NCBI GenBank assembly: GCA_018238155.1 | Contig: JABCTZ010000046.1 | Location: 318,784-382,783 of the forward strand | DNA length: 64,000 nucleotides | Direction: 5' to 3' | Source: Candidatus Heimdallarchaeota archaeon | Lineage (GTDB): Archaea; Asgardarchaeota; Heimdallarchaeia; JABLTI01 | Shown here: positions 2,760-45,190 of the stretch, one piece after another | How positions within the stretch are numbered: the first letter of the stretch is position 1 | Layout: each line of letters begins with the position of its first letter | Program-made: the position numbers and the translations under genes | The notes under the pieces: model-generated | Told to the model about the DNA's origin: nothing | What the model saw: the letters and a program-made list of their open reading frames with translations, nothing else | Databases searched by the model: none

Positions 2760-2852
2760 ATCTAAAGGTAAACAAATTATTCTTTTATCGAAAAAAGAGA
2801 AATGCTTAAAACTGAATAGGTTAAGAAAAAACCATAACCTCTAGGCAACAAT

Positions 2853-3025
2853 GTCGAGGTAGCTTAGCTTGGTTACGGATGTCCACGCGTGCACGTTCGC
2901 CAGAATGGGCGCCTGACTCATAATCGAAATCTCACAGTGGCCAGATTTGATGGGACATCAGGAGGTCGCGGGATCGAAAATCCATTAACATTTTTAATGG
3001 TTCGGTTTGCCCGCCCTCGACACCA
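2853..3025 (+). tRNA. Elongator tRNA-Met (CAU) with three introns (about 2875-2905, 2923-2956, 2979-3008) and encoded CCA
   Basis: Acceptor GTCGAGG/CCTCGAC-A-CCA; anticodon arm CCTGA-CT-CAT-A|A-TCAGG; T arm GCGGG/CCCGC. Each insert is flanked by a 4-bp helix with 3-nt bulges. Removing all three leaves 78 nt. Confidence 0.9.
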
Positions 3026-3139
3026 ATTTTCAACTATCTTTTATTATGATTTTCAATGTGTTTACGATTTGAAATTTAAAATCTATTATGTAACATTTTC
3101 AAATTCAGCTACCATTTGGCAAAAAAATCGTATTGTTAG

Positions 3140-4255
3140 CTAATTGAAGAACTCGCATATATCTCTAGTTTTAGTTATACTATCATAAGTTTCATCTAAA
3201 TCCTCAACGGAGCTTTGATAAACATTCTTAGGTAAGATGAAAAATGTATCTTCATTATTTTCAATAATCTGCAATACATAAGAAATCAATTTATCTACTT
3301 CAATATTATACATAGATCCTCGAGCACCGTAAAAACTACAATTGATAGCACTAAGAGCTTGACCAAACTTTAGAGCATTATCGATTAGGTTTTTGTCAAG
3401 ATTCTGAATTCCTGCTAGACCTTTTCTCGCTAATTGATTGATAATTCCAGCAGTACACCAATCTCCAGCACCTGCTGTATCATGTATGTTAGCGATTGGA
3501 AAGGACTTAACAAATTGCCAATTAGAATCTTTTCTTCTATACTTTAAACCATCTGCTCCAAGGGTAACAATTTCGAGATCGGGCAGAGATTTTAGTTCAA
3601 TTATATCCTCAATAACTAAATTGGTATCATTTCTCTGATTTGAGTATTTCAGAACATTGCTGAGCTCAATTGCTTTCCTCATTTTTTTTGTATCTTTAAC
3701 GACTTGAGGTTCAAATATTATTAGAGTACCCTCACCAGCAAATTTCTCCGCCATTTTGAGTATACTAGGAGCAATACGATCAAAGTAAAAAACATCGGGA
3801 ATAGTTTTAATTTTGGGTAATAAATCACTATATTGTTTTAGCGTTATAGGTTGAAATCTTGGTAAATAATCACCACAAGTTGGACATCTAAAGCTAAAGG
3901 AGTGAGTTGGCGGATTTTTATTTAGATTTATTTTTTCTATCACAACAGGTATTGAGTTTGAATCTGTTCTAACAAGGAAATCCGTTTTCACATTCCATTT
4001 TTCTAAATCTTCGAGCATTATTTCTACTAAAGGACCTTTACCTAATCTTGCTAACGGATAAGTGTTCCAACCCAAATAGGATAAGATTGTTAGGATATTA
4101 CCACATGAACCACCAGCTGCGGTAGAGAATTGTTCTAATGTGGAACCATTCCTCTTATAGATGATATCTAATGCTACTAAACCACTACCATAGATTATTG
4201 GTTTTTTTAGTATAGTTGAATCATCTTGTAAATCATTATTCATAATAACATTCAC
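3140..4255 (-). CDS. PfkB/ribokinase-family carbohydrate or nucleoside kinase with a CxxC insert
   Basis: AGGSCGN and DTAGAGD PfkB signatures; CPTCG insert. Confidence 0.85.
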   Translation of the reverse strand: MNVIMNNDLQDDSTILKKPIIYGSGLVALDIIYKRNGSTLEQFSTAAGGSCGNILTILSYLGWNTYPLARLGKGPLVEIMLEDLEKWNVKTDFLVRTDSNSIPVVIEKINLNKNPPTHSFSFRCPTCGDYLPRFQPITLKQYSDLLPKIKTIPDVFYFDRIAPSILKMAEKFAGEGTLIIFEPQVVKDTKKMRKAIELSNVLKYSNQRNDTNLVIEDIIELKSLPDLEIVTLGADGLKYRRKDSNWQFVKSFPIANIHDTAGAGDWCTAGIINQLARKGLAGIQNLDKNLIDNALKFGQALSAINCSFYGARGSMYNIEVDKLISYVLQIIENNEDTFFILPKNVYQSSVEDLDETYDSITKTRDICEFFN

Positions 4256-5390
4256 CCTCTAACCAAATTGCAAAGTGCTCACTTTCAATTTGATTATGAT
4301 TATCCAGATCTTTGTCTGTAATATTATAACCTTTTGCTTCAGTATAAGCTATACCAACATTACTTTTATTATTTTCGTGACAAGAGTAAACTGCAAGTAG
4401 TGCTCCTAGTGATAAGATTTTACTGGATAATGGTGAAATAACAAACTGACAACCTTCTAATAAAGCCAATGTCTTTTCATATTTTCTAATTGTAGCTAAA
4501 ATTATTCTATATACATCAAAAGGATCTTGCTCAGCTGCATAGAGAATCTGATCTTTGCTTTTAATTACTTCTTTAAATTCTTTGTAAATATCATCACCTC
4601 TTCTTGGGTTTTTAGAAGGAAAAGGGAGAATATAACAAATATCTTTTGGTGTTATCAGAGAGCTAATTTCATTGTACTGTTCAGTTTTTTGTTCTCCTAA
4701 AATTGGAATCCAAATTTTTGGAATATGATCTTTAGATTGATTTTTCAAATCTCCTTCTAATCCCAACATATATTGAGCTTTTACTACTTCTTTTGGGTGA
4801 ACACTAATATCATATTTTGAGCTTTCTGTGATTAGCACAAATAAGTTCTTTTTACTCACATTGTTATTATTGAAATTTTCAACATATTTAAGTAAAATTT
4901 GTATTATCGGAAAGTATAAAGAATATGGTATTGCACTTATATCAATTAGAATGTCAGAATAATCTTGGTATAAAGTAGGATTAGTAAATAAATTCCTTAT
5001 ATTTTGAGGTCCTGTTCTTTTTTTCCCAAGATCATCTATTACCATTTCAATTTTCTCTTCTTTTATTTGAATTTCATTTTTCTTGATTAAATCAATTAAT
5101 CTGTTGTAATTATCAATAATTAAATCATCATGTTTATGAGATGGAGAATTAACCCCCTCGTTGTATTCAATTAATAAACATTCCAACTTTCCTTCAAAAT
5201 TTAAACCTAATATTTTTTCTAGACCTATGCACATTCTATGATCAAAACCTTTACCTAAAATGAAAAGTATTTTCCTATCATTCTTTTTAAGAAATTCTTC
5301 CCAGAAAATATTGAAATCTTTGTTTTTACAAATAAAATTGATTGATTCCCACTTATTATTACAGTTCAATATTTCCATTTTCTTAACCAC
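4236..5390 (-). CDS. Uncharacterised Rossmann-like (possibly tandem CARF-like) protein of the PRTase/ATPase island
   Basis: 384-aa ORF overlapping both neighbours; IDISAIP and SPLSSKILSLGALLA motifs resemble CARF-like nucleotide-binding folds. Confidence 0.5.
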   Translation of the reverse strand: MVKKMEILNCNNKWESINFICKNKDFNIFWEEFLKKNDRKILFILGKGFDHRMCIGLEKILGLNFEGKLECLLIEYNEGVNSPSHKHDDLIIDNYNRLIDLIKKNEIQIKEEKIEMVIDDLGKKRTGPQNIRNLFTNPTLYQDYSDILIDISAIPYSLYFPIIQILLKYVENFNNNNVSKKNLFVLITESSKYDISVHPKEVVKAQYMLGLEGDLKNQSKDHIPKIWIPILGEQKTEQYNEISSLITPKDICYILPFPSKNPRRGDDIYKEFKEVIKSKDQILYAAEQDPFDVYRIILATIRKYEKTLALLEGCQFVISPLSSKILSLGALLAVYSCHENNKSNVGIAYTEAKGYNITDKDLDNHNQIESEHFAIWLEGECYYE

Positions 5391-7320
5391 CTTTCGCTCT
5401 TACCGTATATCCATAATTTATCCAATTATGCAATGTTCTTAAAGAAACTTCACGATATCCCCCATATTCCAAAGGTAAACCATATTTAACACAAAGTAAA
5501 CGGTTAAGATATAGTACTAACCAATAAGTTCCTTTACACTTAACTTCTCTTTGTTCAAGAATATTACTAACTAAACAGTTATGTAGAACAGTATTTAATT
5601 TCTTATCTTCATTTGTAGAAAGAACATTGTTTCTATTAAGACGTATTGCATCTTTTGAAGAAATCGCAATTCCAGTAACTCCTGGAGCATATGGAGCATT
5701 AGGTTTATCTGTTTCATATTTCGATAATTTTCCAATTGCATCAATTAAATTTCGAATTTCTGTCTCAAATGATAAATTTTGAAAATTTCTTTCTAGAAAG
5801 TTATTTGATATACCTCTCAATAAGTTTTCTTGTGTTTTGGGAGAAAGTTTAGTGACCCTAGCTTTCATAAGATTATTTGTTAAAAATGTATCAAAGAGCT
5901 TCTCTGAGATATTTAAAAATTGTTCAATATTATTTGAAGCAACTTGAGATACTTTTTCCAATCCAAAATAATAAGGTATTTTCTCTTCAATTGAAATTTT
6001 AAAAGCAGCAGCTTTCCTAATTGCAGATGATATTTTTCTCATTGGTTTTTCTTCAACTTGAGAATCTATTAAAGTAGTTTGAATTGAACCTCTTATTTTA
6101 CGATCATATAGAATTTGAATAGATCTTAATAATATAATTTTCTCAATTAAAGTATCCAAATTATTTTGTTTGTATTTTTTATCTATTAAAGAAATTTGTT
6201 CTTTATAAAAATTCATTAAAGAATCTATGTTTTCAACTTTTGGAAGTATTCGTTTTTTCAAGTTACTAATTATTTCCTTCCATTTTTCTATTGGTAAATT
6301 TTCTTGTAAACTTTCTGAAAATCGAGAAACCAATATGTGTGAAGATTCATTGATTCTTCTATTAGCTATAGATTTTACTAATTTAATAAATGATGACTTA
6401 TTATTATACCAGTATTCATCTAGATTAATTTCAACAAAATCTCTTTCCATTCTTGAATTTCTATTTCGTGTTGATTTGAAAATTTCATCTTTCTGTAATG
6501 ATTCTATTCTGCTAGATAGCCACCAATTACTTGCTCTATTTTTGAGTAGGAAATTTGATAAATTATTGATTTGATTTTTTGATAATGTATCTACTTCGTC
6601 TAACATTATTAATACTGATTCATATAATTGGTTGCCATTATAAAGAAAGCATTTGGGATTAAATAGGTGAAAAATCTCATGGAAATTTGGTAGATTTATA
6701 TTTCCGTTCTTTTCATTATATCCATAGATGTTTAGATCCAATGTTTGTTTTTCTAATTGTGAGGCCCATGAAAACAATTCTTTACCAGTACAGTTTGTGG
6801 GTATTTCACTTTCAGGATTCAATTCTGGAATTTTTAAAATCTTAATTTCAGATAAATCATTAGGGTATAATATACCAGCAAATACAGTTAATCCTTTTAG
6901 AAAACTAATTACCAATCTAGCCATTAATAAACTATAAAAAGCACTTATTTTCATATTTTCAGCAAGAATTTGGTTGGTATCAAAAAGATAATAATCAACC
7001 ATGGATGTGTATATACCAAGTTTACTAGGTTTGTTATCAAAGATTTGAAAACTATTAACTTTTACATAGAGTTCATTATGAACTTCATTGTGTCTATTTT
7101 CAAATAATGTCATTAAGCTCTCAGGAGTAAACAGCCTTAGAAAAGTTGTTTTCCCGGAACCAGGAAGACTAAGCATTTTTACAGGACTATTCCATAAATG
7201 ATTTCGATATTTTAATAGTAAATCTAATGCTTTTGGTTCAAACAAACTTAGAAAAATACTATCATTTATTTTTTTTTCAGATGCTCTATAAGAGAATGGA
7301 TTTCTTTCATAAACACTCAT
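5383..7320 (-). CDS. STAND/ORC-CDC6-like P-loop ATPase
   Basis: N-terminal NPF motif, Walker A SLPGSGKT, Walker B VLIMLDE, C-terminal YLNRLLC..YGLP segment. Confidence 0.75.
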   Translation of the reverse strand: MSVYERNPFSYRASEKKINDSIFLSLFEPKALDLLLKYRNHLWNSPVKMLSLPGSGKTTFLRLFTPESLMTLFENRHNEVHNELYVKVNSFQIFDNKPSKLGIYTSMVDYYLFDTNQILAENMKISAFYSLLMARLVISFLKGLTVFAGILYPNDLSEIKILKIPELNPESEIPTNCTGKELFSWASQLEKQTLDLNIYGYNEKNGNINLPNFHEIFHLFNPKCFLYNGNQLYESVLIMLDEVDTLSKNQINNLSNFLLKNRASNWWLSSRIESLQKDEIFKSTRNRNSRMERDFVEINLDEYWYNNKSSFIKLVKSIANRRINESSHILVSRFSESLQENLPIEKWKEIISNLKKRILPKVENIDSLMNFYKEQISLIDKKYKQNNLDTLIEKIILLRSIQILYDRKIRGSIQTTLIDSQVEEKPMRKISSAIRKAAAFKISIEEKIPYYFGLEKVSQVASNNIEQFLNISEKLFDTFLTNNLMKARVTKLSPKTQENLLRGISNNFLERNFQNLSFETEIRNLIDAIGKLSKYETDKPNAPYAPGVTGIAISSKDAIRLNRNNVLSTNEDKKLNTVLHNCLVSNILEQREVKCKGTYWLVLYLNRLLCVKYGLPLEYGGYREVSLRTLHNWINYGYTVRAKGG

Positions 7321-7335
7321 AACTTATTACACCTA

Positions 7336-8463
7336 TCAACCATGTCTAGTAATTCTTGGAAATAATCCTTTAAATTTCAGATAATCATAACTCCAAAGAA
7401 TAAATATTGAATTGTTCGGAGTATTGTGATTTAAAATAACAGGTATCGCACATTCAGCAAAACCCAATTTCAGAATTTGCGATCCACCTTTATCTGTATG
7501 TTCACTTTGAACAGCTGGATCATAATAATCATCTTTTAAAATTAAATCATATATTTTTTCCGAATCAGTTATTGTTATATTATCCTCTAAAATCTGAAGT
7601 ACTTCAATTCTATATTCGACATTTGGCTTTCTTTTTAACAGCTCTCTCATATATTTGTCTATATGTCTACGTGCTTTATTCGTTGCGATGCACAAAACAA
7701 TAACTACTAAATATTTTCTTTGAAAAAAACCCTTGTTCTTTTCTATTACTTTTATTGATTTGGCAATTTTTCCTTTGAATCTTCTTTTTTTCTTGTCAAT
7801 AAAACTTTTGCCACTTGCAGTGAAATCATCAAGTAAAAACAGCACTTCAAATCTATTACGTTTTTTTTCCCTTTTAAGCTTCAAATCATTTTCCTCCACA
7901 GGAATCTCTAGTAAACCTTTTTTCAATTCCTTTTGTAAATCTAGACGTTTATCTCTATTGATATAATATATTGAACAAATTTGCTCGTGACTTATTGAAT
8001 TTTTCTTATTCTCTCTCCTAAAATCACCCATCATTGATCCATCACTTAGACCCATGAATAAACATTTTCTAAGGAGAATTTTAAAGTAGGGATCACTAAT
8101 GTGCTGATTAATTAGATACTTGGGTTTTTTATTTCTATCAGCAACAATATCAATTAGTACTGGTAAAATTGACTTGTAGTAAATTAGCGAAACAAGGTGC
8201 AATATTTCTTGACGAGATATATAGATTAGTTTACTAGTAATGAAGTCATATGAAATCTTCTTATCATTATCATTATTGAACTGATCCAACCAAATTACAA
8301 AACTTTCTAAAAATCGCATTCCAATTGAGAAGTTTTGATAATTATCATATTTATATTGTGCAATAGCTCTTAATTCTTTAAGCTCATTTGCTATAGAGCT
8401 TTCATTCATCCATAAGAGAGTTTGCTTTAATATTGCTTCTGCGATTTCTTCGTTTATGTTCAA
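7336..8463 (-). CDS. Type I phosphoribosyltransferase-fold protein (conflict-system type)
   Basis: PRPP-binding loop LFLLDDFTASGKS; C-terminal HNTPNNS...LFPR motif. Confidence 0.75.
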   Translation of the reverse strand: MNINEEIAEAILKQTLLWMNESSIANELKELRAIAQYKYDNYQNFSIGMRFLESFVIWLDQFNNDNDKKISYDFITSKLIYISRQEILHLVSLIYYKSILPVLIDIVADRNKKPKYLINQHISDPYFKILLRKCLFMGLSDGSMMGDFRRENKKNSISHEQICSIYYINRDKRLDLQKELKKGLLEIPVEENDLKLKREKKRNRFEVLFLLDDFTASGKSFIDKKKRRFKGKIAKSIKVIEKNKGFFQRKYLVVIVLCIATNKARRHIDKYMRELLKRKPNVEYRIEVLQILEDNITITDSEKIYDLILKDDYYDPAVQSEHTDKGGSQILKLGFAECAIPVILNHNTPNNSIFILWSYDYLKFKGLFPRITRHG

Positions 8464-8467
8464 TCCC

Positions 8468-10429
8468 TCACTCCATTTTCAAGTTTAAATGAAATGTATT
8501 TTCACCGAATATTATTCTATTTAAGTAAAATAAAGTTATCGGAACTCCTCTATAACCCATTGGTCCCAAATTCCAACAATTGAAAGGGTTTGAAGAAACC
8601 TCATCTACACTTAATGATAAGTTTCGATTTAATAAATCAAAATCGTTACCATCTATTGAACCTTTATCACCTATGGTCAAAACAGAATGATTTTTAGCCA
8701 ATGAATTTTGTATTAAATCTATAACCACTGTTTTTGTTACAGTTTTTGGTATTATATCTATAGAATGATCTGAAAGTACCATTTTCACTTCTTTATTTTG
8801 TCCAAGTTTTGTATTTAAGTATGAAAATATCGATAACAAATCACTATTTGGAGCTATTATTGTGAGTTGAGTAGGTTTATGTCTTATATCTTTTTCAAAT
8901 AGACTAAGATATTTATCATCACAAAGTAGTTCATTAATTTCATTAACATATGCATTTATTGAAATGTTATCGAAATCAATCTTTTCTGAAAGAAAACCAC
9001 AAATACTCCCATTATGATAACCAACAAAAATTTTCTCATGATATTCCTTTGGAATTTTCTCTATCAAGTCGCGGTTTAGAGAACCTCCTCTACCTGAAGC
9101 AATTCCTATCTTGATATTATGATCTATTAAATGTAGAAGATTGCTAACAACATCATCAGCGATACCAATTTTTCTTCTTTCAGAGGGACATAATGTGCCA
9201 TCAAAATCAAAAACTATTCCACCGAATTTTTCTTCTGTAAAACTGGCTTGGTAATCATCGAATGATTTTTTCCAAAAATTTCGAACTTGTTTAGTTGAAA
9301 AATCAAAATTTGGGAATTTTCTTAAAATATATGCTCTATTTGGTTCTTTTCTCCATAATTGATATTTGCTCAATTCTGAAGTTGTTACTGACATTCGATA
9401 TAGTTTCCTACCAAATTCAGGAATACCTTGACTTGAAGGGTCAATATTTCTATAAACACCTGCAAGATTTACTAAAAAATATGTTTTTATAAGTAAATCA
9501 ATAGCTGATAATGGACCTTCAGAATATTTGGACTTAAAAATGTATTTTGGAATTTTCTCAGGAATTAATGAGAAAGTTCGTTTGAGATTTTTTTCCGATT
9601 TTCTATCAGCAAATGCTAACAAAGAAGATATTTGCCATTTTTTATCAATCCAATTATGTCTTCCATGTCCAAAATTACGATAATCGCTCAGACTAACATT
9701 TCCTAATGCTGATTCACTATATTTTGATTCCAAATCAATTGCAGCAAATCTACCCCAATTCCCAAATAATACAATAATTGTATCTTTACAAATAATATGC
9801 TTCAAATTATTTCTTAGTGTGTTTTCAAATTCATCAAAATCTTTTGAATCCAAAGCAAACTCATCAAATTCCTTTGGTAGGAAAAGTATTTTCTTATTTG
9901 ATTTGTAATAAGCTCGTAGAAATAAAATACTAAATATTAATATAGAATTAACAGCTAGAAAACCATCTTTTTTTGTAGGTAATTTGAAATTAAAATAAGA
10001 AATAATTGTGTAATTAGAGAATTTGGTTATAATAGGTGCATTTGGATTTGCACACACTACAATAATGTGTTTATGCTCTCTTGCTACTGCTTCATTCAAA
10101 ACGTTAATTATATCAGTATTTTTACCAGAAGTTGTAATTAAGATAACAGCTGAATTTGAGGAAGTATTGGTACTAATATAATCCAAAGGTGTCATTGCTT
10201 TGGCAATTTGACTTGTAAATTCACTATGTAATGAAGAAATATAGCTGGCAACTGAATAAGAACCACCAGAACCAATAACAATTAAAGATTCCTCTTTAAT
10301 CTTCTTAAGATACTTTATCAAATTATCAATAGGGTATTTTGTTGCCCAATTATATGCTTTATCCATTTCCTGTAATCTCGTTCTATATTTAGACATTATT
10401 AGCACCAAATTTTTTCTCTCTTCTAGCAC
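8468..10429 (-). CDS. Double-SIS sugar isomerase domain fused to a Cof-type HAD phosphatase
   Basis: SIS motifs VIGSGGS, ITTSGKNTD, DLESKYSE..NFGHGRH; HAD motifs DFDGTL, ASGRG, GDKG..GND. Real start may be the ATG at 10396. Confidence 0.8.
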   Translation of the reverse strand: MLEERKNLVLIMSKYRTRLQEMDKAYNWATKYPIDNLIKYLKKIKEESLIVIGSGGSYSVASYISSLHSEFTSQIAKAMTPLDYISTNTSSNSAVILITTSGKNTDIINVLNEAVAREHKHIIVVCANPNAPIITKFSNYTIISYFNFKLPTKKDGFLAVNSILIFSILFLRAYYKSNKKILFLPKEFDEFALDSKDFDEFENTLRNNLKHIICKDTIIVLFGNWGRFAAIDLESKYSESALGNVSLSDYRNFGHGRHNWIDKKWQISSLLAFADRKSEKNLKRTFSLIPEKIPKYIFKSKYSEGPLSAIDLLIKTYFLVNLAGVYRNIDPSSQGIPEFGRKLYRMSVTTSELSKYQLWRKEPNRAYILRKFPNFDFSTKQVRNFWKKSFDDYQASFTEEKFGGIVFDFDGTLCPSERRKIGIADDVVSNLLHLIDHNIKIGIASGRGGSLNRDLIEKIPKEYHEKIFVGYHNGSICGFLSEKIDFDNISINAYVNEINELLCDDKYLSLFEKDIRHKPTQLTIIAPNSDLLSIFSYLNTKLGQNKEVKMVLSDHSIDIIPKTVTKTVVIDLIQNSLAKNHSVLTIGDKGSIDGNDFDLLNRNLSLSVDEVSSNPFNCWNLGPMGYRGVPITLFYLNRIIFGENTFHLNLKME

Positions 10430-10516
10430 ATATATTTGATTGTTATTATTAAAACCAATCGAATGTATCCTTGTTTATTTTACTTAAATAGAGCTAATAA
10501 AAAATAAAATTAGTGA

Positions 10517-10843
10517 TTATTTGAAACATCTTTTGAGCTCATTTTCAAATTCACTTGATGATGAAATAATATGAAACATCTCTAATATCCAAGCAATTTC
10601 ATTTAAATCTTCAAAAGTGATTTTTTGAGATATCTTAGATAATTCTTCAGAATATTTTGTGAAATTGTTTACTCTAGTTGTTTGTATAGAGTCATAAATA
10701 GTTTCTATTAGTTTTATCAGACAATCAAAATCTACGTTAGTTTTATTTCGCTGTTTACCGATTATTGATCCTACTGTTTGCCAAATTTCATTGTCTTCAA
10801 AAACAGGTTTCTTGTTTTTGGTTTTGCTGCACCTCTTTCCTTC
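10517..10843 (-). pseudogene. About 108-codon open frame with no ATG/GTG/TTG start near its 5' end (remnant or non-canonical start)
   Basis: Manual translation ...KKPVFEDNEIWQTVGSIIGKQRNKTNVDFDCLIKLIETIYDS...ELKRCFK*; a GAGGTG SD-like sequence lies near its 5' end. Confidence 0.4.
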
Positions 10844-10882
10844 TCAATTGAAGATGTAGAGCAAAAACCAGTTTCTGGTTCA

Positions 10883-12247
10883 TTAGAATAAACAATTATG
10901 AATAGCTTTCACTGTTTCTTTAACATCTTTTCTTCTAACAATAAAATAGTAAGCGATTTCAGATGCTCCTGCGGAAATCATTTCGATATTAATCCCTTTT
11001 TGTGCAACTGCTGTAAACACATTGGCAGCCATTCCTGAAGTTTTCATTAAGCCCTCTCCAACAATACCAATTAAGCTAATATCCTCCTCCAAAGTGATAT
11101 TTTGAATAGTATCACCAATTAAATCAGTAATAACCTTGTAGCTCTTCTGTGAATCATTTGGATTGATGAGCAAATTAATGCATGTTTGTGAAGTAATAAT
11201 TGAATAAATATTAACATCAATTTTTGCTAATAGATTACCAATATCACCTATGATACCGGGTTTGAATCCAACACCTGGACCTTGAATTCGCAAAACGGCT
11301 ATATTGTTATTATATGTTACACTTTTGATAGAAGGTTTGCTCTTTTCAAATTTTGATAATATTATTGTTCCTTCGTTTTGTGGTTGAGAGAAATTACGAA
11401 TAGTAACATTTATCTTTGAGTCTATTAAAGGCTCTAAAGCTCTTGGGTGAAGTATTTTCGCTCCAAAATATGCAAGTTCAGCTGCTTCATAATATGATAA
11501 TTGATTGATTTTCTTTGCTGTTTTTACTATCGTAGGATCAGCACTCATAAATCCATCAACATTTTTCCAAAGAATGATTGTTTCAGCCTCTAATCCACAT
11601 GCTACTACTGTGGCACTATAATCTGAACCATTTCTACCGAAAGTGGTAATTTTATTATTTTCAGAACAACCAAAATATCCTGTTATAATCGGTGTAATTC
11701 CTTTTTGGATTTTAGGTAGAAGCTTTTGCTTCAAATTCTTCTTTACAACTGAAATATTAGCTGTTGCATTTTCAAAACAGGAATCTGTTATTATTCCTAT
11801 TGTATCTGCTTCAAAAGCAAGAGCAACATGATTTTTATCATTTAAAACCCCTGCTAAAAGTATAGCTGCAAGTCTTTCACCAAAACTCAAAATATGCATT
11901 TTAACTGAATCTGTCACTTCTTCTGTAAATGCTATTCCATAAAGTAATCGCTCTAATTTTACTATTTTGATATCTAAAGTATCAATTACTTCTTGTCTTA
12001 TGATATCATTAGTGATTATTTCATCAGCAAACTCCCTATGCTTTTTTCGGATGTTTTGAATAATTGGTTCAATATTACTTTCAGATTTTTGTGCGAACTC
12101 GATACCATTTAGCAATTCATTTGTAATGCCATTTACTGCAGAGACGACTAACACACAATCATCTTTCTCATTTTTAACTATCTCAACAACTTTCAGGAAA
12201 TCTGAAACAGAGCATAAACACCCACCACCGAATTTCATAACTTTCAA
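10883..12247 (-). CDS. lysC: Aspartate kinase
   Basis: VMKFGG, VVSAV, TFGRNGSDYSA, ELAYFGAKILHP; two C-terminal ACT domains. Confidence 0.95.
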   Translation of the reverse strand: MKVMKFGGGCLCSVSDFLKVVEIVKNEKDDCVLVVSAVNGITNELLNGIEFAQKSESNIEPIIQNIRKKHREFADEIITNDIIRQEVIDTLDIKIVKLERLLYGIAFTEEVTDSVKMHILSFGERLAAILLAGVLNDKNHVALAFEADTIGIITDSCFENATANISVVKKNLKQKLLPKIQKGITPIITGYFGCSENNKITTFGRNGSDYSATVVACGLEAETIILWKNVDGFMSADPTIVKTAKKINQLSYYEAAELAYFGAKILHPRALEPLIDSKINVTIRNFSQPQNEGTIILSKFEKSKPSIKSVTYNNNIAVLRIQGPGVGFKPGIIGDIGNLLAKIDVNIYSIITSQTCINLLINPNDSQKSYKVITDLIGDTIQNITLEEDISLIGIVGEGLMKTSGMAANVFTAVAQKGINIEMISAGASEIAYYFIVRRKDVKETVKAIHNCLF

Positions 12248-45111: not shown

Positions 45112-45190
45112 AGCGCGGTGGGGTAGCTAGGTTGTGCCCACAGGGCTCATAACCCTGGGATCGGTGGTTCGAATCCACCCCGCGCTACCA
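45112..45190 (+). tRNA. Initiator tRNA-Met (CAU)
   Basis: A1-U72 AGCGCGG/CCGCGCT, GGG/CCC in the anticodon stem, TTCGAAT T loop, encoded CCA. Confidence 0.96.

What the first reader, a model, noticed from the sequence alone, without database searches (positions are those of the whole stretch)
3140..10429. Five-gene tRNA-adjacent island: SIS-HAD, PRTase, STAND-like ATPase, CARF-like protein and PfkB kinase
Seen: five co-directional genes with overlaps or gaps of at most 15 bp, visibly AT-richer than the metabolic genes, ending 115 bp from the tRNA-Met 3' end. PRTase, Walker A/B, HAD and PfkB motifs look intact. Established: tRNA 3' ends are integration hotspots, and PRTase plus ORC/CDC6-like ATPase pairs and PRTase/HAD modules recur in predicted conflict and stress systems. 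Inference: an anti-viral or stress system that makes, senses and removes an unusual (phospho)ribosylated sugar or nucleotide signal, or drains nucleotide pools. I cannot match this composition to a validated named system, and it has no nuclease effector.
Basis: partly seen in the sequence, partly recalled or inferred. Interest (0 to 1): 0.8.

Follow-up and report, generated by a model that had tools for sequence, protein, structure and literature searches.

The report
Mobile PRTase-CARF five-gene defence-like cassette
A 7.5-kb block inserted beside a tRNA gene of an Asgard (Heimdall-group) archaeon is one copy of a rare five-gene cassette that moves between bacteria and archaea, and it most likely acts as an untested anti-virus or anti-plasmid system in which a small-molecule sensor controls a nucleotide-precursor-draining enzyme.

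Summary
Five tightly packed minus-strand genes (3140-10429) encode a double-SIS/HAD-IIB fusion, a retron-type PRTase (PF24390), an ORC/Cdc6-like AAA+ ATPase (PF24389), a stand-alone tandem-CARF protein and a PfkB kinase. They end 115 bp from a tRNA-Met(CAT) that standard tools miss because it has three introns.

A same-genus genome has the empty site, so window 3031-10513 is an insertion. None of 40 relatives searched carries the ATPase.

The same five genes, in the same order, occur in 73 of 80 fetched loci from about ten bacterial phyla and four archaeal lineages, out of 157 of 185,579 species. Nothing else is conserved around them. Flanks often hold integrases, relaxases, transposases, conjugation genes or defence genes.

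New here: the CARF protein folds like Can1, with two CARF domains in one chain. It is predicted to bind the PRTase (score 0.91, best control 0.00). At least 39 of 49 host genomes lack Cas10.

Best reading (about 0.55): an abortive-infection-type system whose PRTase effector is gated by CARF and the ATPase, with the sugar-phosphate enzymes making or clearing the ligand or product. It is untested and unnamed, though its families are catalogued. This scan has already found the cassette on other DNA at least seven times.

The parts
2853..3025 (+). tRNA-Met(CAT) gene with three introns (2875-2905, 2923-2956, 2979-3008). Its 3' flank is the insertion site.
   Evidence: Not found by ARAGORN or Rfam. 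The spliced form is called tRNA-Met(cat), 78 nt. It is 92-94% identical, introns included, in same-genus genome G009.
3031..10513 (.). 7.48-kb insertion relative to same-genus genome G009. It holds the five-gene cassette and about 190 bp of its own flanks.
   Evidence: Window 2771-3030 and 10514-10898 align to L096 8273-8540 and 8590-9008, which lie 49 bp apart there. GC is 0.284 against 0.330.
8468..10429 (-). Fusion of a double-SIS domain (GlmS/NagB-II-like phosphosugar isomerase or deaminase type) to a HAD-IIB (Cof/PMM-type) phosphatase. The start is uncertain: GTG at 10429 or ATG at 10396.
   Evidence: Pfam SIS and Hydrolase_3. NCBIfam HAD-IIB. A profile search of the PDB gave NagB-II/GlmS-like chains at E = 7.5e-5 and Cof/PMM HAD chains. 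Conserved motifs: GSGGS 53-57, DxRxFxHGRHxW 249-260, DxDGT 408-412, K566, GD588...ND596.
7336..8463 (-). Retron-type PRTase (PRTase-CE), the probable effector.
   Evidence: PF24390 6e-22 and PADLOC PRTase_III-A 7e-11. PRPP loop LLDDFTASG 209-218. G334-x14-PNN motif in 64 of 69 cassettes. AF2 pLDDT 88, and the top structural matches are all type I PRTases at Z 8-9.
5383..7320 (-). ORC/Cdc6-like AAA+ ATPase, the probable sensor or switch.
   Evidence: PF24389 1.5e-19 across the whole profile. Walker A GSGKT 54-58 and Walker B D241-E242 are conserved. The nearest Atlas clusters are all 'ORC-CDC6 family AAA ATPase'.
4236..5390 (-). Stand-alone tandem-CARF receptor: two CARF-like Rossmann domains, about 40-200 and 220-380, with no effector domain.
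   Evidence: PADLOC PDLC01910 'CARF6' 1.2e-92. AF2 pLDDT 91. The best structural match is Can1 6sce (Z 15.3, 229 residues), followed by Csm6, Cam1, Can2, Card1, Csa3 and SAVED. It is predicted to bind the PRTase.
3140..4255 (-). PfkB-family sugar or nucleoside kinase of unknown substrate.
   Evidence: PF00294 9e-20. It lies far below every NCBIfam equivalog cut-off. D30, GG48-49 and DTAGAGD 259-265 are conserved.
3094..3107 (+). Left copy of a 14-nt perfect direct repeat (CATTTTCAAATTCA) that brackets the cassette. It may be a recombination scar.
   Evidence: About 1.5 such pairs are expected by chance anywhere in 8.2 kb, by my own estimate, so it is suggestive only.
10540..10553 (+). Right copy of the 14-nt direct repeat. 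It lies in host sequence shared with G009.
10517..10843 (-). Host-side flank: a 108-codon open frame without a usual start. It is a homologue of a 117-aa ORF that lies directly after the tRNA in G009.
   Evidence: tblastn gave 75.5% identity over 98 aa to L096 8596-8889. No significant Pfam family (T4_baseplate, E 0.0079, 16.3 bits against a 24.5-bit cut-off).

Best explanation
Window 3031-10513 is a horizontally acquired copy of a rare, self-contained five-gene conflict cassette. It is most likely an abortive-infection-type anti-virus or anti-plasmid system.

Proposed mechanism:
- The retron-type PRTase is the effector. When switched on it consumes PRPP, or phosphoribosylates a target, and so starves nucleotide synthesis.
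- The PRTase sits in a complex with a stand-alone tandem-CARF receptor. This pseudo-dimer, like Can1 or SAVED, reads a small nucleotide-like or phosphosugar ligand.
- The ORC/Cdc6-like AAA+ ATPase is the invader-sensing or licensing switch.
- The double-SIS/HAD-IIB fusion and the PfkB kinase form a separable sugar-phosphate module. It makes, or more likely clears, the ligand or the PRTase product, which would reset or protect the host.

Shown: the insertion, the conservation and mobility of the cassette, the domain identities, the intact active sites, and independence from Cas10.

Supported by prediction only: CARF-PRTase binding.

Inferred: the defence role, PRPP depletion, the ATPase as sensor, and the role of the sugar module.
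For: Insertion and recent gain:
- Empty site in same-genus G009.
- The ATPase was not found in 40 relatives, 10 of them in the same genus.
- Lowest GC of the window.

A conserved unit:
- 157 of 185,579 species encode the CARF protein.
- 73 of 80 loci hold all five genes in the same order, with median spacings of -4 to -11 nt.
- No sixth conserved gene.

Mobility:
- Integrase in 7 loci, relaxase in 5, excisionase-like HTH in 5.
- 19 plasmid records, 9 of them conjugative. On the Sulfitobacter plasmid the cassette lies between the relaxase/T4CP genes and the virB operon.
- The ATPase tree mixes phyla. Archaea need 4 label changes, at least 2 of them forced by well-supported branches.

Defence context:
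- Nearest neighbours include BrxL, a type I MTase, mad2, DrmD, SoFic, Zeta toxin and transposases.
- The closest relative lies beside RAMP, MazE, NucS-like, Nmad2 and PDDEXK genes.
- A dCTP-deaminase-like gene is inserted into the operon in 4 loci.

Effector:
- PF24390 and PADLOC retron III-A PRTase hits.
- PRPP loop and the retron-specific G-x14-PNN motif (the motif is described in PMC12746101).
- The Retron-Eco11 PRTase gives abortive infection with about a 50% fall in PRPP.

Sensor:
- Can1-like tandem CARF, with the loops after the first and fourth strands of both domains conserved.

Coupling:
- Predicted CARF-PRTase complex score 0.91 in three runs, best of 3 controls 0.00. That mark was reached by 58 of 80 solved complexes and 2 of 110 mismatched pairs. 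The runs agree in at least 95% of their contacts, and the partner's pLDDT is at least 87.
- The interface uses invariant CARF residues 257-266, 282-292 and 376-384.
- A sequence search of the PDB found no solved relative of the PRTase. The CARF protein was compared with the PDB by fold only.

Modularity:
- The PRTase-ATPase-CARF triad stays contiguous while the sugar module changes position (L018; pTC2).
Against: - There are no experimental data for this cassette anywhere in the library searched.
- No signal-making cyclase is present, so the CARF ligand is unknown.
- The defence-neighbour tally has no matched control and includes housekeeping neighbours such as NrdD, AccA, SRP54 and MoeA.
- In this genome the flanks are a tRNA and a methionine-biosynthesis operon, not a defence island.
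- PRPP depletion in Retron-Eco11 was modest, about 50% with P = 0.04, and that effector is only a distant relative.
- Three conserved sugar-phosphate enzymes are more than a simple toxin needs.
- The complex score is a model's confidence, not a measurement.
Confidence: 0.55

Rival explanations
1. Self-made second-messenger pathway. The PRTase, with the kinase, isomerase and phosphatase, synthesises a new phosphoribosyl or sugar-phosphate signal. The tandem CARF reads it, and the output goes through the ATPase or an unlinked effector. The PRTase is a synthase here, not a toxin.
For: - All four enzyme active sites are strictly conserved.
- CARF ligand loops are conserved, yet at least 39 of 49 host genomes lack Cas10, so the ligand must come from somewhere else.
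- Double-SIS, PfkB and HAD repeat the isomerase-kinase-phosphatase logic of ADP-heptose synthesis. This is established pathway knowledge and an analogy only.
- Some PRTases, such as HisG, build N-ribosyl nucleotides. This too is established knowledge.
Against: - No effector would remain in a cassette that is otherwise self-contained.
- The PRTase is of the retron effector type.
- The CARF protein is predicted to bind the PRTase itself. That fits sensor-effector coupling better than synthase-receptor coupling.
Confidence: 0.17
2. Accessory metabolic operon. It would be a mobile salvage or catabolic pathway for an unusual amino-sugar, ketosamine or nucleoside, with the CARF-like and ORC-like proteins acting as regulators.
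For: - A PfkB kinase with a double-SIS enzyme is the established kinase/deglycase logic of fructosamine catabolism (FrlD/FrlB, FraD/FraB). This is established knowledge.
- The SIS profile matches NagB-II/GlmS-like chains.
- Metabolic islands also move on plasmids.
Against: - No transporter or transcription factor is conserved with the cassette.
- It sits inside a plasmid conjugation module.
- Neighbours include defence genes and transposases.
- A dCTP-deaminase-like gene or a NADAR gene is added in variants.
- The CARF and retron-type PRTase families are otherwise known from immunity.
- The distribution is very sparse: 157 of 185,579 species.
Confidence: 0.1
3. Mobile-element weapon or addiction module. 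The cassette serves plasmids and ICEs, through exclusion of rivals or post-segregational killing, and does not protect the host against viruses.
For: - 9 of 19 plasmid records are conjugative.
- On one plasmid it lies between the relaxase/T4CP genes and virB.
- Integrases and relaxases are the commonest neighbours in Bacteroidota.
Against: - Many copies, including this one, are chromosomal with no mobility gene nearby.
- Defence systems are typical cargo of such elements, so this context does not separate the two readings.
Confidence: 0.1
4. Type III CRISPR accessory acting in trans. The tandem CARF would sense cyclic oligoadenylate made by Cas10 encoded elsewhere in the genome.
For: - The closest structural relatives all bind cOA.
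- The closest relative's contig has a RAMP gene about 5 kb away.
Against: - The Cas10 palm domain scores over its cut-off in only 10 of 49 cassette genomes and gives no match in this genome, which is 90.7% complete. The control search also rings in E. coli, so 10 is an upper bound.
- No cas gene is conserved beside the cassette.
Confidence: 0.04

Closest known systems
Type III-A retron PRTase-like effectors, for example Retron-Eco11 (PMC12746101); Pfam PF24390 PRTase-CE; PADLOC PRTase_III-A
   Same: Same PRTase subfamily by HMM. Both have the PRPP-binding loop and the subfamily-specific G-x14-PNN motif. The effector is kept silent in a complex until triggered. The likely output is disturbed nucleotide-precursor supply.
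   Different: None of the five cassette genes is a reverse transcriptase. An ncRNA was not looked for. The retron-type C-terminal winged helix was not assessed. The partners here are a tandem-CARF protein, an ORC/Cdc6-like ATPase and three sugar-phosphate enzyme domains. The N-terminal helical region that is predicted to contact CARF has no counterpart that I could test.
Can1 (PDB 6sce) and other CARF or SAVED sensors of type III CRISPR and CBASS signalling
   Same: Two CARF-like Rossmann domains in one chain form a pseudo-dimer (Z 15.3, 229 aligned residues). The conserved loops lie where CARF proteins bind their ligand.
   Different: No fused nuclease or other effector. No Cas10 or CD-NTase is linked. 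The effector is predicted to be a separate polypeptide, the PRTase. The ligand is unknown.
PADLOC 'CARF6--CARF_CARF_CARF' models and Pfam PF24389 ORC-CDC6-like
   Same: The window proteins match these catalogue models, so the component families had already been noticed by comparative genomics.
   Different: PADLOC offers no system built from these five genes. The source papers (Makarova 2020 NAR; Burroughs 2015 NAR) are not in the library, so I could not check what they say about the neighbourhood. The model's name implies three CARF domains, but my model shows two.
Fructosamine kinase/deglycase pairs (FrlD/FrlB, FraD/FraB) and the GmhA-HldA-GmhB steps of ADP-heptose synthesis
   Same: A PfkB kinase combined with a (double-)SIS enzyme, plus a HAD phosphatase. 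The SIS profile's best solved relatives are NagB-II/GlmS-type amino-sugar enzymes.
   Different: The resemblance is at superfamily level only. No equivalog model is reached. There is no transporter and no nucleotidyltransferase. The enzymes are fixed parts of a mobile PRTase-ATPase-CARF operon.

Membership tests
CARF superfamily (PADLOC 'CARF6') | Match to the family's sequence model | tested here: met
   PDLC01910, E = 1.2e-92, covering 13-382 of 384.
CARF superfamily (PADLOC 'CARF6') | CARF-type Rossmann-like fold | tested here: met
   AF2 pLDDT 91. Can1 Z 15.3, then Csm6, Cam1, Can2, Card1, Csa3 and Sso2081 at Z 9-13, well above unrelated rows at about 7. Foldseek alone gave only generic tandem Rossmann hits.
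CARF superfamily (PADLOC 'CARF6') | Conserved polar motifs after strands 1 and 4 that form the ligand pocket | tested here: met
   G46-x-G-F-D-x-R52 and D150-x-S152 in domain A, and W227-x-P-x-L-G-E233 and S322-x-K324-x-x-S327 in domain B, are at least 93% conserved in 77 sequences. Their placement in the pocket is inferred from the secondary structure.
CARF superfamily (PADLOC 'CARF6') | Binds a cyclic or linear oligonucleotide | not testable with these tools
   Needs binding assays.
Type III CRISPR-Cas ancillary module | Linked to, or co-occurring with, Cas10 | tested here: not met
   PF22335 scores over its cut-off in 10 of 49 cassette genomes and gives no match in G000. No cas gene is conserved in the flanks.
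PRTase-CE / retron III-A PRTase effectors | Pfam or PADLOC model match above the cut-off | tested here: met
   PF24390, 79.1 bits against a cut-off of 27. PRTase_III-A, 7e-11.
PRTase-CE / retron III-A PRTase effectors | PRPP-binding loop and the G-x14-PNN motif | tested here: met
   LLDDFTASG at 209-218. G334-x14-P349-N-N, present in 64 of 69 cassettes. The motif is defined in PMC12746101. The final Pro of the published motif is absent.
PRTase-CE / retron III-A PRTase effectors | Type I PRTase fold | tested here: met
   The top 12 structural matches are almost all PRTases at Z 7.9-8.9, a modest score.
Retron (type III-A) system | Reverse transcriptase and msr-msd ncRNA next to the effector | tested here: not met
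   None of the five genes has an RT domain. No further gene is conserved beside the cassette in 80 loci. Rfam finds nothing in the region.
ORC-CDC6-like AAA+ ATPases (PF24389) | Model match and intact Walker A and B motifs | tested here: met
   70.6 bits against a cut-off of 27, over profile positions 42-567 of 571. GSGKT and D241-E242 are conserved.
PfkB / ribokinase family | Model match, GG switch and DTxGAGD catalytic motif | tested here: met
   PF00294, 71.7 bits. G48-G49 and D259...G264-D265 are conserved. No substrate-specific equivalog is reached.
Double-SIS amino-sugar enzymes (GlmS isomerase domain, NagB-II, FrlB) | Sequence or profile similarity across the SIS domains | tested here: inconclusive
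   Profile hits to 8eol and 3hba at E = 7.5e-5 cover only profile positions 24-229. Pfam SIS scores 31 bits. The catalytic residues were not compared.
HAD-IIB (Cof/PMM-type) phosphatases | HAD motifs I-IV and a subfamily model | tested here: met
   DxDGT 408-412, S450, K566 and GD588...ND596 are conserved. TIGR01484 scores 36.1 bits, just under its cut-off of 41.8, and Hydrolase_3 scores 32 bits against 20.9.
tRNA-targeted integrative island | Insertion at the tRNA 3' flank with an empty site in a relative | tested here: met
   A different 1.7-kb insert lies at the same site in G006, with a tRNA-fragment repeat.
tRNA-targeted integrative island | Integrase and flanking att repeats | tested here: not met
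   No integrase lies in or beside the insert. The only flanking repeat is a 14-nt direct repeat of uncertain significance.

The most novel reading that the evidence does not exclude
The cassette is a CRISPR- and cyclase-independent immune signalling pathway that reads a new kind of messenger. That messenger would be a phosphoribosyl- or ketosamine-type sugar-phosphate compound, made or destroyed by the double-SIS/HAD/PfkB module. It would bind the tandem CARF, which directly gates a PRPP-consuming or phosphoribosylating PRTase. This would be the first CARF ligand not made by Cas10 or a CD-NTase, and the first split CARF-effector pair.
Probability: 0.2. Interest if true: 0.9.

Novelty: new variant of a known kind. 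Interest (0 to 1): 0.62.

Why it matters
CARF sensors are known almost only as parts of type III CRISPR signalling. Retron-type PRTases are known only as retron effectors. Here the two are joined, apparently as a physical complex, in a rigidly conserved operon. The operon has no cyclase, no CRISPR and no retron. It carries three conserved sugar-phosphate enzyme domains and an ORC-like ATPase.

Working out its ligand and its output could reveal new immune chemistry, such as PRPP depletion, phosphoribosylation or a sugar-phosphate messenger.

The copy described here shows that the module reaches Asgard archaea through a tRNA-flank insertion hotspot. The system is small (7.3 kb), has many bacterial homologues on plasmids, and can be tested directly in laboratory strains.

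Tried and rejected
- **Literature.** Eight searches found no description of the five-gene combination. The two most relevant papers, NAR 2015 gkv1267 and NAR 2020 gkaa635, are not held. I therefore cannot exclude that the neighbourhood was already noted there.
- **Sequence search of the PDB.** Single-sequence searches for the PRTase, the ATPase and the SIS-HAD fusion gave nothing significant. A PRTase profile also gave nothing.
- **Foldseek on the whole CARF model.** It returned only generic tandem Rossmann proteins such as USP, KaiC and KCC tails. The CARF relationship appeared only with the exhaustive aligner.
- **Word-based homologue search with the AT-rich ATPase.** It saturated and returned only 10 proteins, so it says nothing about family size.
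- **Phage collection.** No match to the CARF protein.
- **Sequencing runs.** None was listed for the insert, and no RNA holder was listed.
- **att sites.** No copy of the tRNA 3' part lies at the far junction. Only the 14-nt repeat was found.
- **STAND label for the ATPase.** Rejected in favour of ORC/Cdc6-like AAA+.
- **ShosT and other PADLOC PRTase models.** Not matched at E <= 0.1.
- **Second half of the nearest-neighbour list.** It was not scanned, and no matched random-gene control was run. Defence-island enrichment is therefore stated qualitatively only.

Full report
**1. Observation**

The window carries five minus-strand ORFs at 8468-10429, 7336-8463, 5383-7320, 4236-5390 and 3140-4255. 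They are spaced by +4, +15, -8 and -20 nt. Pfam and PADLOC assign them as follows:
- SIS plus HAD (Hydrolase_3).
- PRTase-CE (PF24390, 6e-22), which also matches PADLOC retron PRTase_III-A at 7e-11.
- ORC-CDC6-like (PF24389, 1.5e-19).
- No Pfam family, but PADLOC model PDLC01910 'CARF6--CARF_CARF_CARF' at 1.2e-92.
- PfkB (9e-20).

ARAGORN and Rfam see no tRNA nearby. However, 2853-3025 has a perfect 7-bp acceptor stem, a CCA end and a CTCATAA anticodon loop. Removing three short insertions (2875-2905, 2923-2956, 2979-3008) yields a 78-nt tRNA-Met(CAT) that ARAGORN accepts. The tRNA 3' end lies 115 bp from the PfkB stop. The block has GC 0.284 against 0.330 for the rest of the window, the lowest of any 7.5-kb stretch in the 64 kb. 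The only correction is that the ATPase is an ORC/Cdc6-type AAA+ protein, not a STAND.

**2. It is an insertion**

The window lies on a long contig of a 4.08-Mb assembly that is 90.7% complete. Earlier notes of this scan and the source names of the nearest homologues place the assembly in the Heimdall group of Asgard archaea.

The ATPase was not found in any of 40 relatives searched: 10 of the same genus, 1 of the same family and 29 of the same class. The intron-bearing tRNA is conserved in 8 of 10 congeners.

In G009, window 2771-3030 aligns at 92% and window 10514-10898 at 82-84%. Only 49 bp lie between these two segments there, against 7,483 bp here. So 3031-10513 is an indel that holds exactly the five genes. 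Given its absence from all relatives searched, it is a gain.

A 14-nt perfect direct repeat brackets the cassette at 3094-3107 and 10540-10553. By my own estimate, about one such pair is expected by chance somewhere in 8 kb of this composition. Its position is therefore suggestive but not proof. No integrase is present.

In G006 a different 1.7-kb insert occupies the same site. It carries a metallo-beta-lactamase-fold gene and ends in a 34-nt copy of part of the tRNA. The site is therefore a hotspot.

**3. It is one copy of a conserved, mobile cassette**

The CARF protein has 221 homologues in the 5.8-billion-protein collection. The 120 listed are 333-400 residues long, and those that carry a source name are called hypothetical or uncharacterised. 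A scan of one genome per species found relatives in 157 of 185,579 species.

In the 80 loci fetched, tblastn finds all five genes on one strand in the order SIS-HAD, PRTase, ATPase, CARF, PfkB in 73 loci. The others are cut by contig ends or truncated. Median spacings are -4 to -11 nt.

All-against-all clustering of 1,283 ORFs shows that no other gene is conserved. The next clusters are:
- a tyrosine integrase in 7 loci;
- a MobA/VirD2 relaxase in 5 loci;
- an excisionase-like HTH_17 protein in 5 loci;
- a dCTP-deaminase-like gene in 4 loci, inserted inside the operon between SIS-HAD and the PRTase;
- DUF488 in 3 loci.

Hosts span Bacteroidota, Acidobacteriota, Planctomycetota, Cyanobacteriota, Chloroflexota, Bacillota, Nitrospirota, Verrucomicrobiota and Armatimonadota. 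They also include Methanoregula, Bathyarchaeota and Nitrosopumilaceae.

In an ATPase tree, phyla are interleaved. Archaea need four label changes, at least two of them forced by well-supported branches. The window's sequence sits on a long branch whose placement is uncertain.

Nineteen plasmid records carry the CARF protein, nine of them conjugative. No phage record carries it. Three plasmid copies were inspected:
- On a Sulfitobacter plasmid the cassette lies between the relaxase/coupling-protein genes and the virB operon.
- On a Burkholderia gladioli plasmid a NADAR gene is coupled upstream.
- On Paenarthrobacter pTC2, as in locus L018, the order is PRTase-ATPase-CARF followed by the sugar enzymes.

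The triad is therefore the fixed core, and the sugar module is a separable unit.

The immediate neighbours in 32 loci include BrxL, a type I methylase, mad2 (three loci), DrmD (two), SoFic, Zeta toxin (two), TniQ and IS transposases. Ordinary housekeeping genes are mixed in. I ran no matched control, so this is qualitative.

The closest cassette is 61-73% identical and lies in another Heimdall MAG, in a different neighbourhood beside Nmad2 and PD-(D/E)xK genes. The matching contig from a sequencing run also shows RAMP, MazE and NucS-like genes. In that copy the PRTase is split by a frameshift near residue 282.

**4. The parts**

*CARF protein.* The AlphaFold2 model is confident (pLDDT 91) and has two alpha/beta domains. 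An exhaustive structural comparison puts Can1 first (6sce, Z 15.3, 229 residues aligned across both domains). Can1 is the enzyme with two CARF domains in one chain. Next come Csm6, Cam1, Can2, Card1, Csx1-Crn2, Csa3, VC1899, Cdn1, Cad1 and the ring nuclease Sso2081 (Z 9-13), then SAVED domains at about Z 8. The loops after the first and fourth strands of both domains are nearly invariant in 77 sequences. There is no effector domain.

*PRTase.* It carries the PRPP loop and G334-x14-PNN, which is present in 64 of 69 cassettes. The Retron-Eco11 paper gives this motif as the hallmark of retron-associated PRTases (PMC12746101). Its model (pLDDT 88) matches type I PRTases at Z 8-9.

*ATPase.* It has intact Walker A and B motifs and a conserved N-terminal R-N-P-F motif.

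*SIS-HAD fusion.* A profile search of the PDB hits NagB-II/GlmS-type double-SIS chains (E = 7.5e-5) and Cof/PMM-type HAD-IIB enzymes. All HAD motifs are conserved.

*PfkB kinase.* It keeps its catalytic motifs but reaches no substrate-specific model.

**5. Tests of mechanism**

(a) *Is the CARF fed by Cas10?* The Cas10 palm domain scores over its cut-off in only 10 of 49 cassette genomes and is absent from this genome. The control search also rings in E. coli, so 10 is an upper bound. The cassette therefore does not depend on type III CRISPR.

(b) *How can an effector-less CARF act?* A complex prediction of CARF with the PRTase, using my own alignments of 35 and 29 sequences, scored 0.91 in all three runs. 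The best of three controls scored 0.00. That mark was reached by 58 of 80 solved complexes and 2 of 110 mismatched pairs. The runs agree in at least 95% of their contacts, and the partner's pLDDT is at least 87.

The interface uses the invariant CARF segments 257-266, 282-292 and 376-384. On the PRTase it uses the N-terminal helical region (29-38, 79-96, 114-123) and residues 289-296.

The PRTase has no solved relative by sequence. The CARF protein has no hit in any Pfam family. A pass from memory of a solved complex is therefore unlikely. This supports binding but does not show it.

(c) *What does this PRTase type do?* In Retron-Eco11 the effector causes abortive infection once phage helicases activate it. 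PRPP was the only metabolite that changed significantly, falling by about 50%.

**6. Reading**

The most likely reading is a conflict system that works as a split CARF-effector pair. The tandem CARF reads a small ligand and gates the PRTase. The PRTase then drains PRPP or phosphoribosylates a target. The ORC-like ATPase senses or licenses, and other recent comparative work treats ORC-CDC6-like components as DNA sensors.

The sugar module resembles two established enzyme logics: isomerase-kinase-phosphatase, as in ADP-heptose synthesis, and kinase-deglycase, as in fructosamine catabolism (FrlD/FrlB). The second logic, together with the NADAR N-glycosidase present in some variants, suggests that this module removes an N-(phospho)ribosyl-amine product or ligand. 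That is inference from family knowledge and has not been tested.

The rival readings are scored separately. They are a self-made messenger, an accessory metabolic operon, a mobile-element weapon, and a CRISPR accessory acting in trans.

**7. Novelty**

The component families are catalogued in Pfam (PF24389, PF24390) and in PADLOC (CARF6). No named or validated system with this composition was found in PADLOC or in the literature I could search. Two key papers could not be read.

This scan has already reported the same cassette on other DNA at least seven times. Those notes gave me the Retron-Eco11 lead, the double-SIS reading and the NADAR lead, and I checked each of them here.

Specific to this copy:
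- the Asgard host;
- the three-intron tRNA hotspot with a demonstrable empty site;
- the Cas10 tally;
- the strongly supported CARF-PRTase complex prediction.

Noticed in passing
window 2853-3025: A tRNA-Met(CAT) gene interrupted by three introns, in the D-arm region, at the canonical 37/38 position and in the T-arm. ARAGORN and Rfam do not see it. It is conserved with its introns (92-94% identity) in a congener.
   Followed up: yes
L098 (G006:C77) 8956-10760: In another species of the genus, the same tRNA flank holds a different 1.7-kb insert. It carries a metallo-beta-lactamase-fold gene (9552-10433) and ends in a 34-nt copy of part of the tRNA (10691-10724). This tRNA flank is therefore a recurrent insertion hotspot.
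   Followed up: partly
window 10517-10843 (-): A 108-codon open frame without a normal start codon, between the cassette and lysC. Its homologue is a 117-aa ORF in G009 and a 234-aa ORF in G006. It has no significant Pfam family (one weak hit, T4_baseplate, below the cut-off). It may be a decaying or mis-started small gene.
   Followed up: partly
L002 5047-5709, L005 6250-6912, L026 6266-6916, L018 6973-7377: A dCTP-deaminase/dUTPase-fold gene is inserted inside the operon, directly upstream of the PRTase (between SIS-HAD and the PRTase in L002, L005 and L026; ahead of PRTase-ATPase-CARF in the rearranged L018), in four Bacillota and Armatimonadota loci. This points to nucleotide-pool chemistry.
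   Followed up: partly
L102 4054-5191 (Heimdall MAG GCA_016927615.1): In the closest relative of the cassette, the PRTase gene is split by a frameshift near residue 282 while the other four genes are intact. This is either real inactivation of the putative toxin or an assembly error.
   Followed up: partly
L021 8949-9956: In a Nitrosopumilaceae genome, an IS630-like DDE transposase has inserted between the ATPase and CARF genes.
   Followed up: partly
L103 (Burkholderia gladioli plasmid bgla_2p) 2364-2957: A NADAR-family gene overlaps the start of the SIS-HAD gene of a distant cassette variant. The plasmid's partial gene table lists no PfkB gene after the CARF gene there.
   Followed up: no
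window 2771 leftwards, and beyond 10898: Homology with the congener G009 is limited to the tRNA plus the small ORF, about 730 bp. The LRR gene cluster to the left and the lysC-asd methionine operon to the right are not syntenic there. The tRNA thus sits between two variable regions.
   Followed up: no
window 45112-45190: A second, intron-free tRNA-Met(CAT) gene on the plus strand.
   Followed up: no
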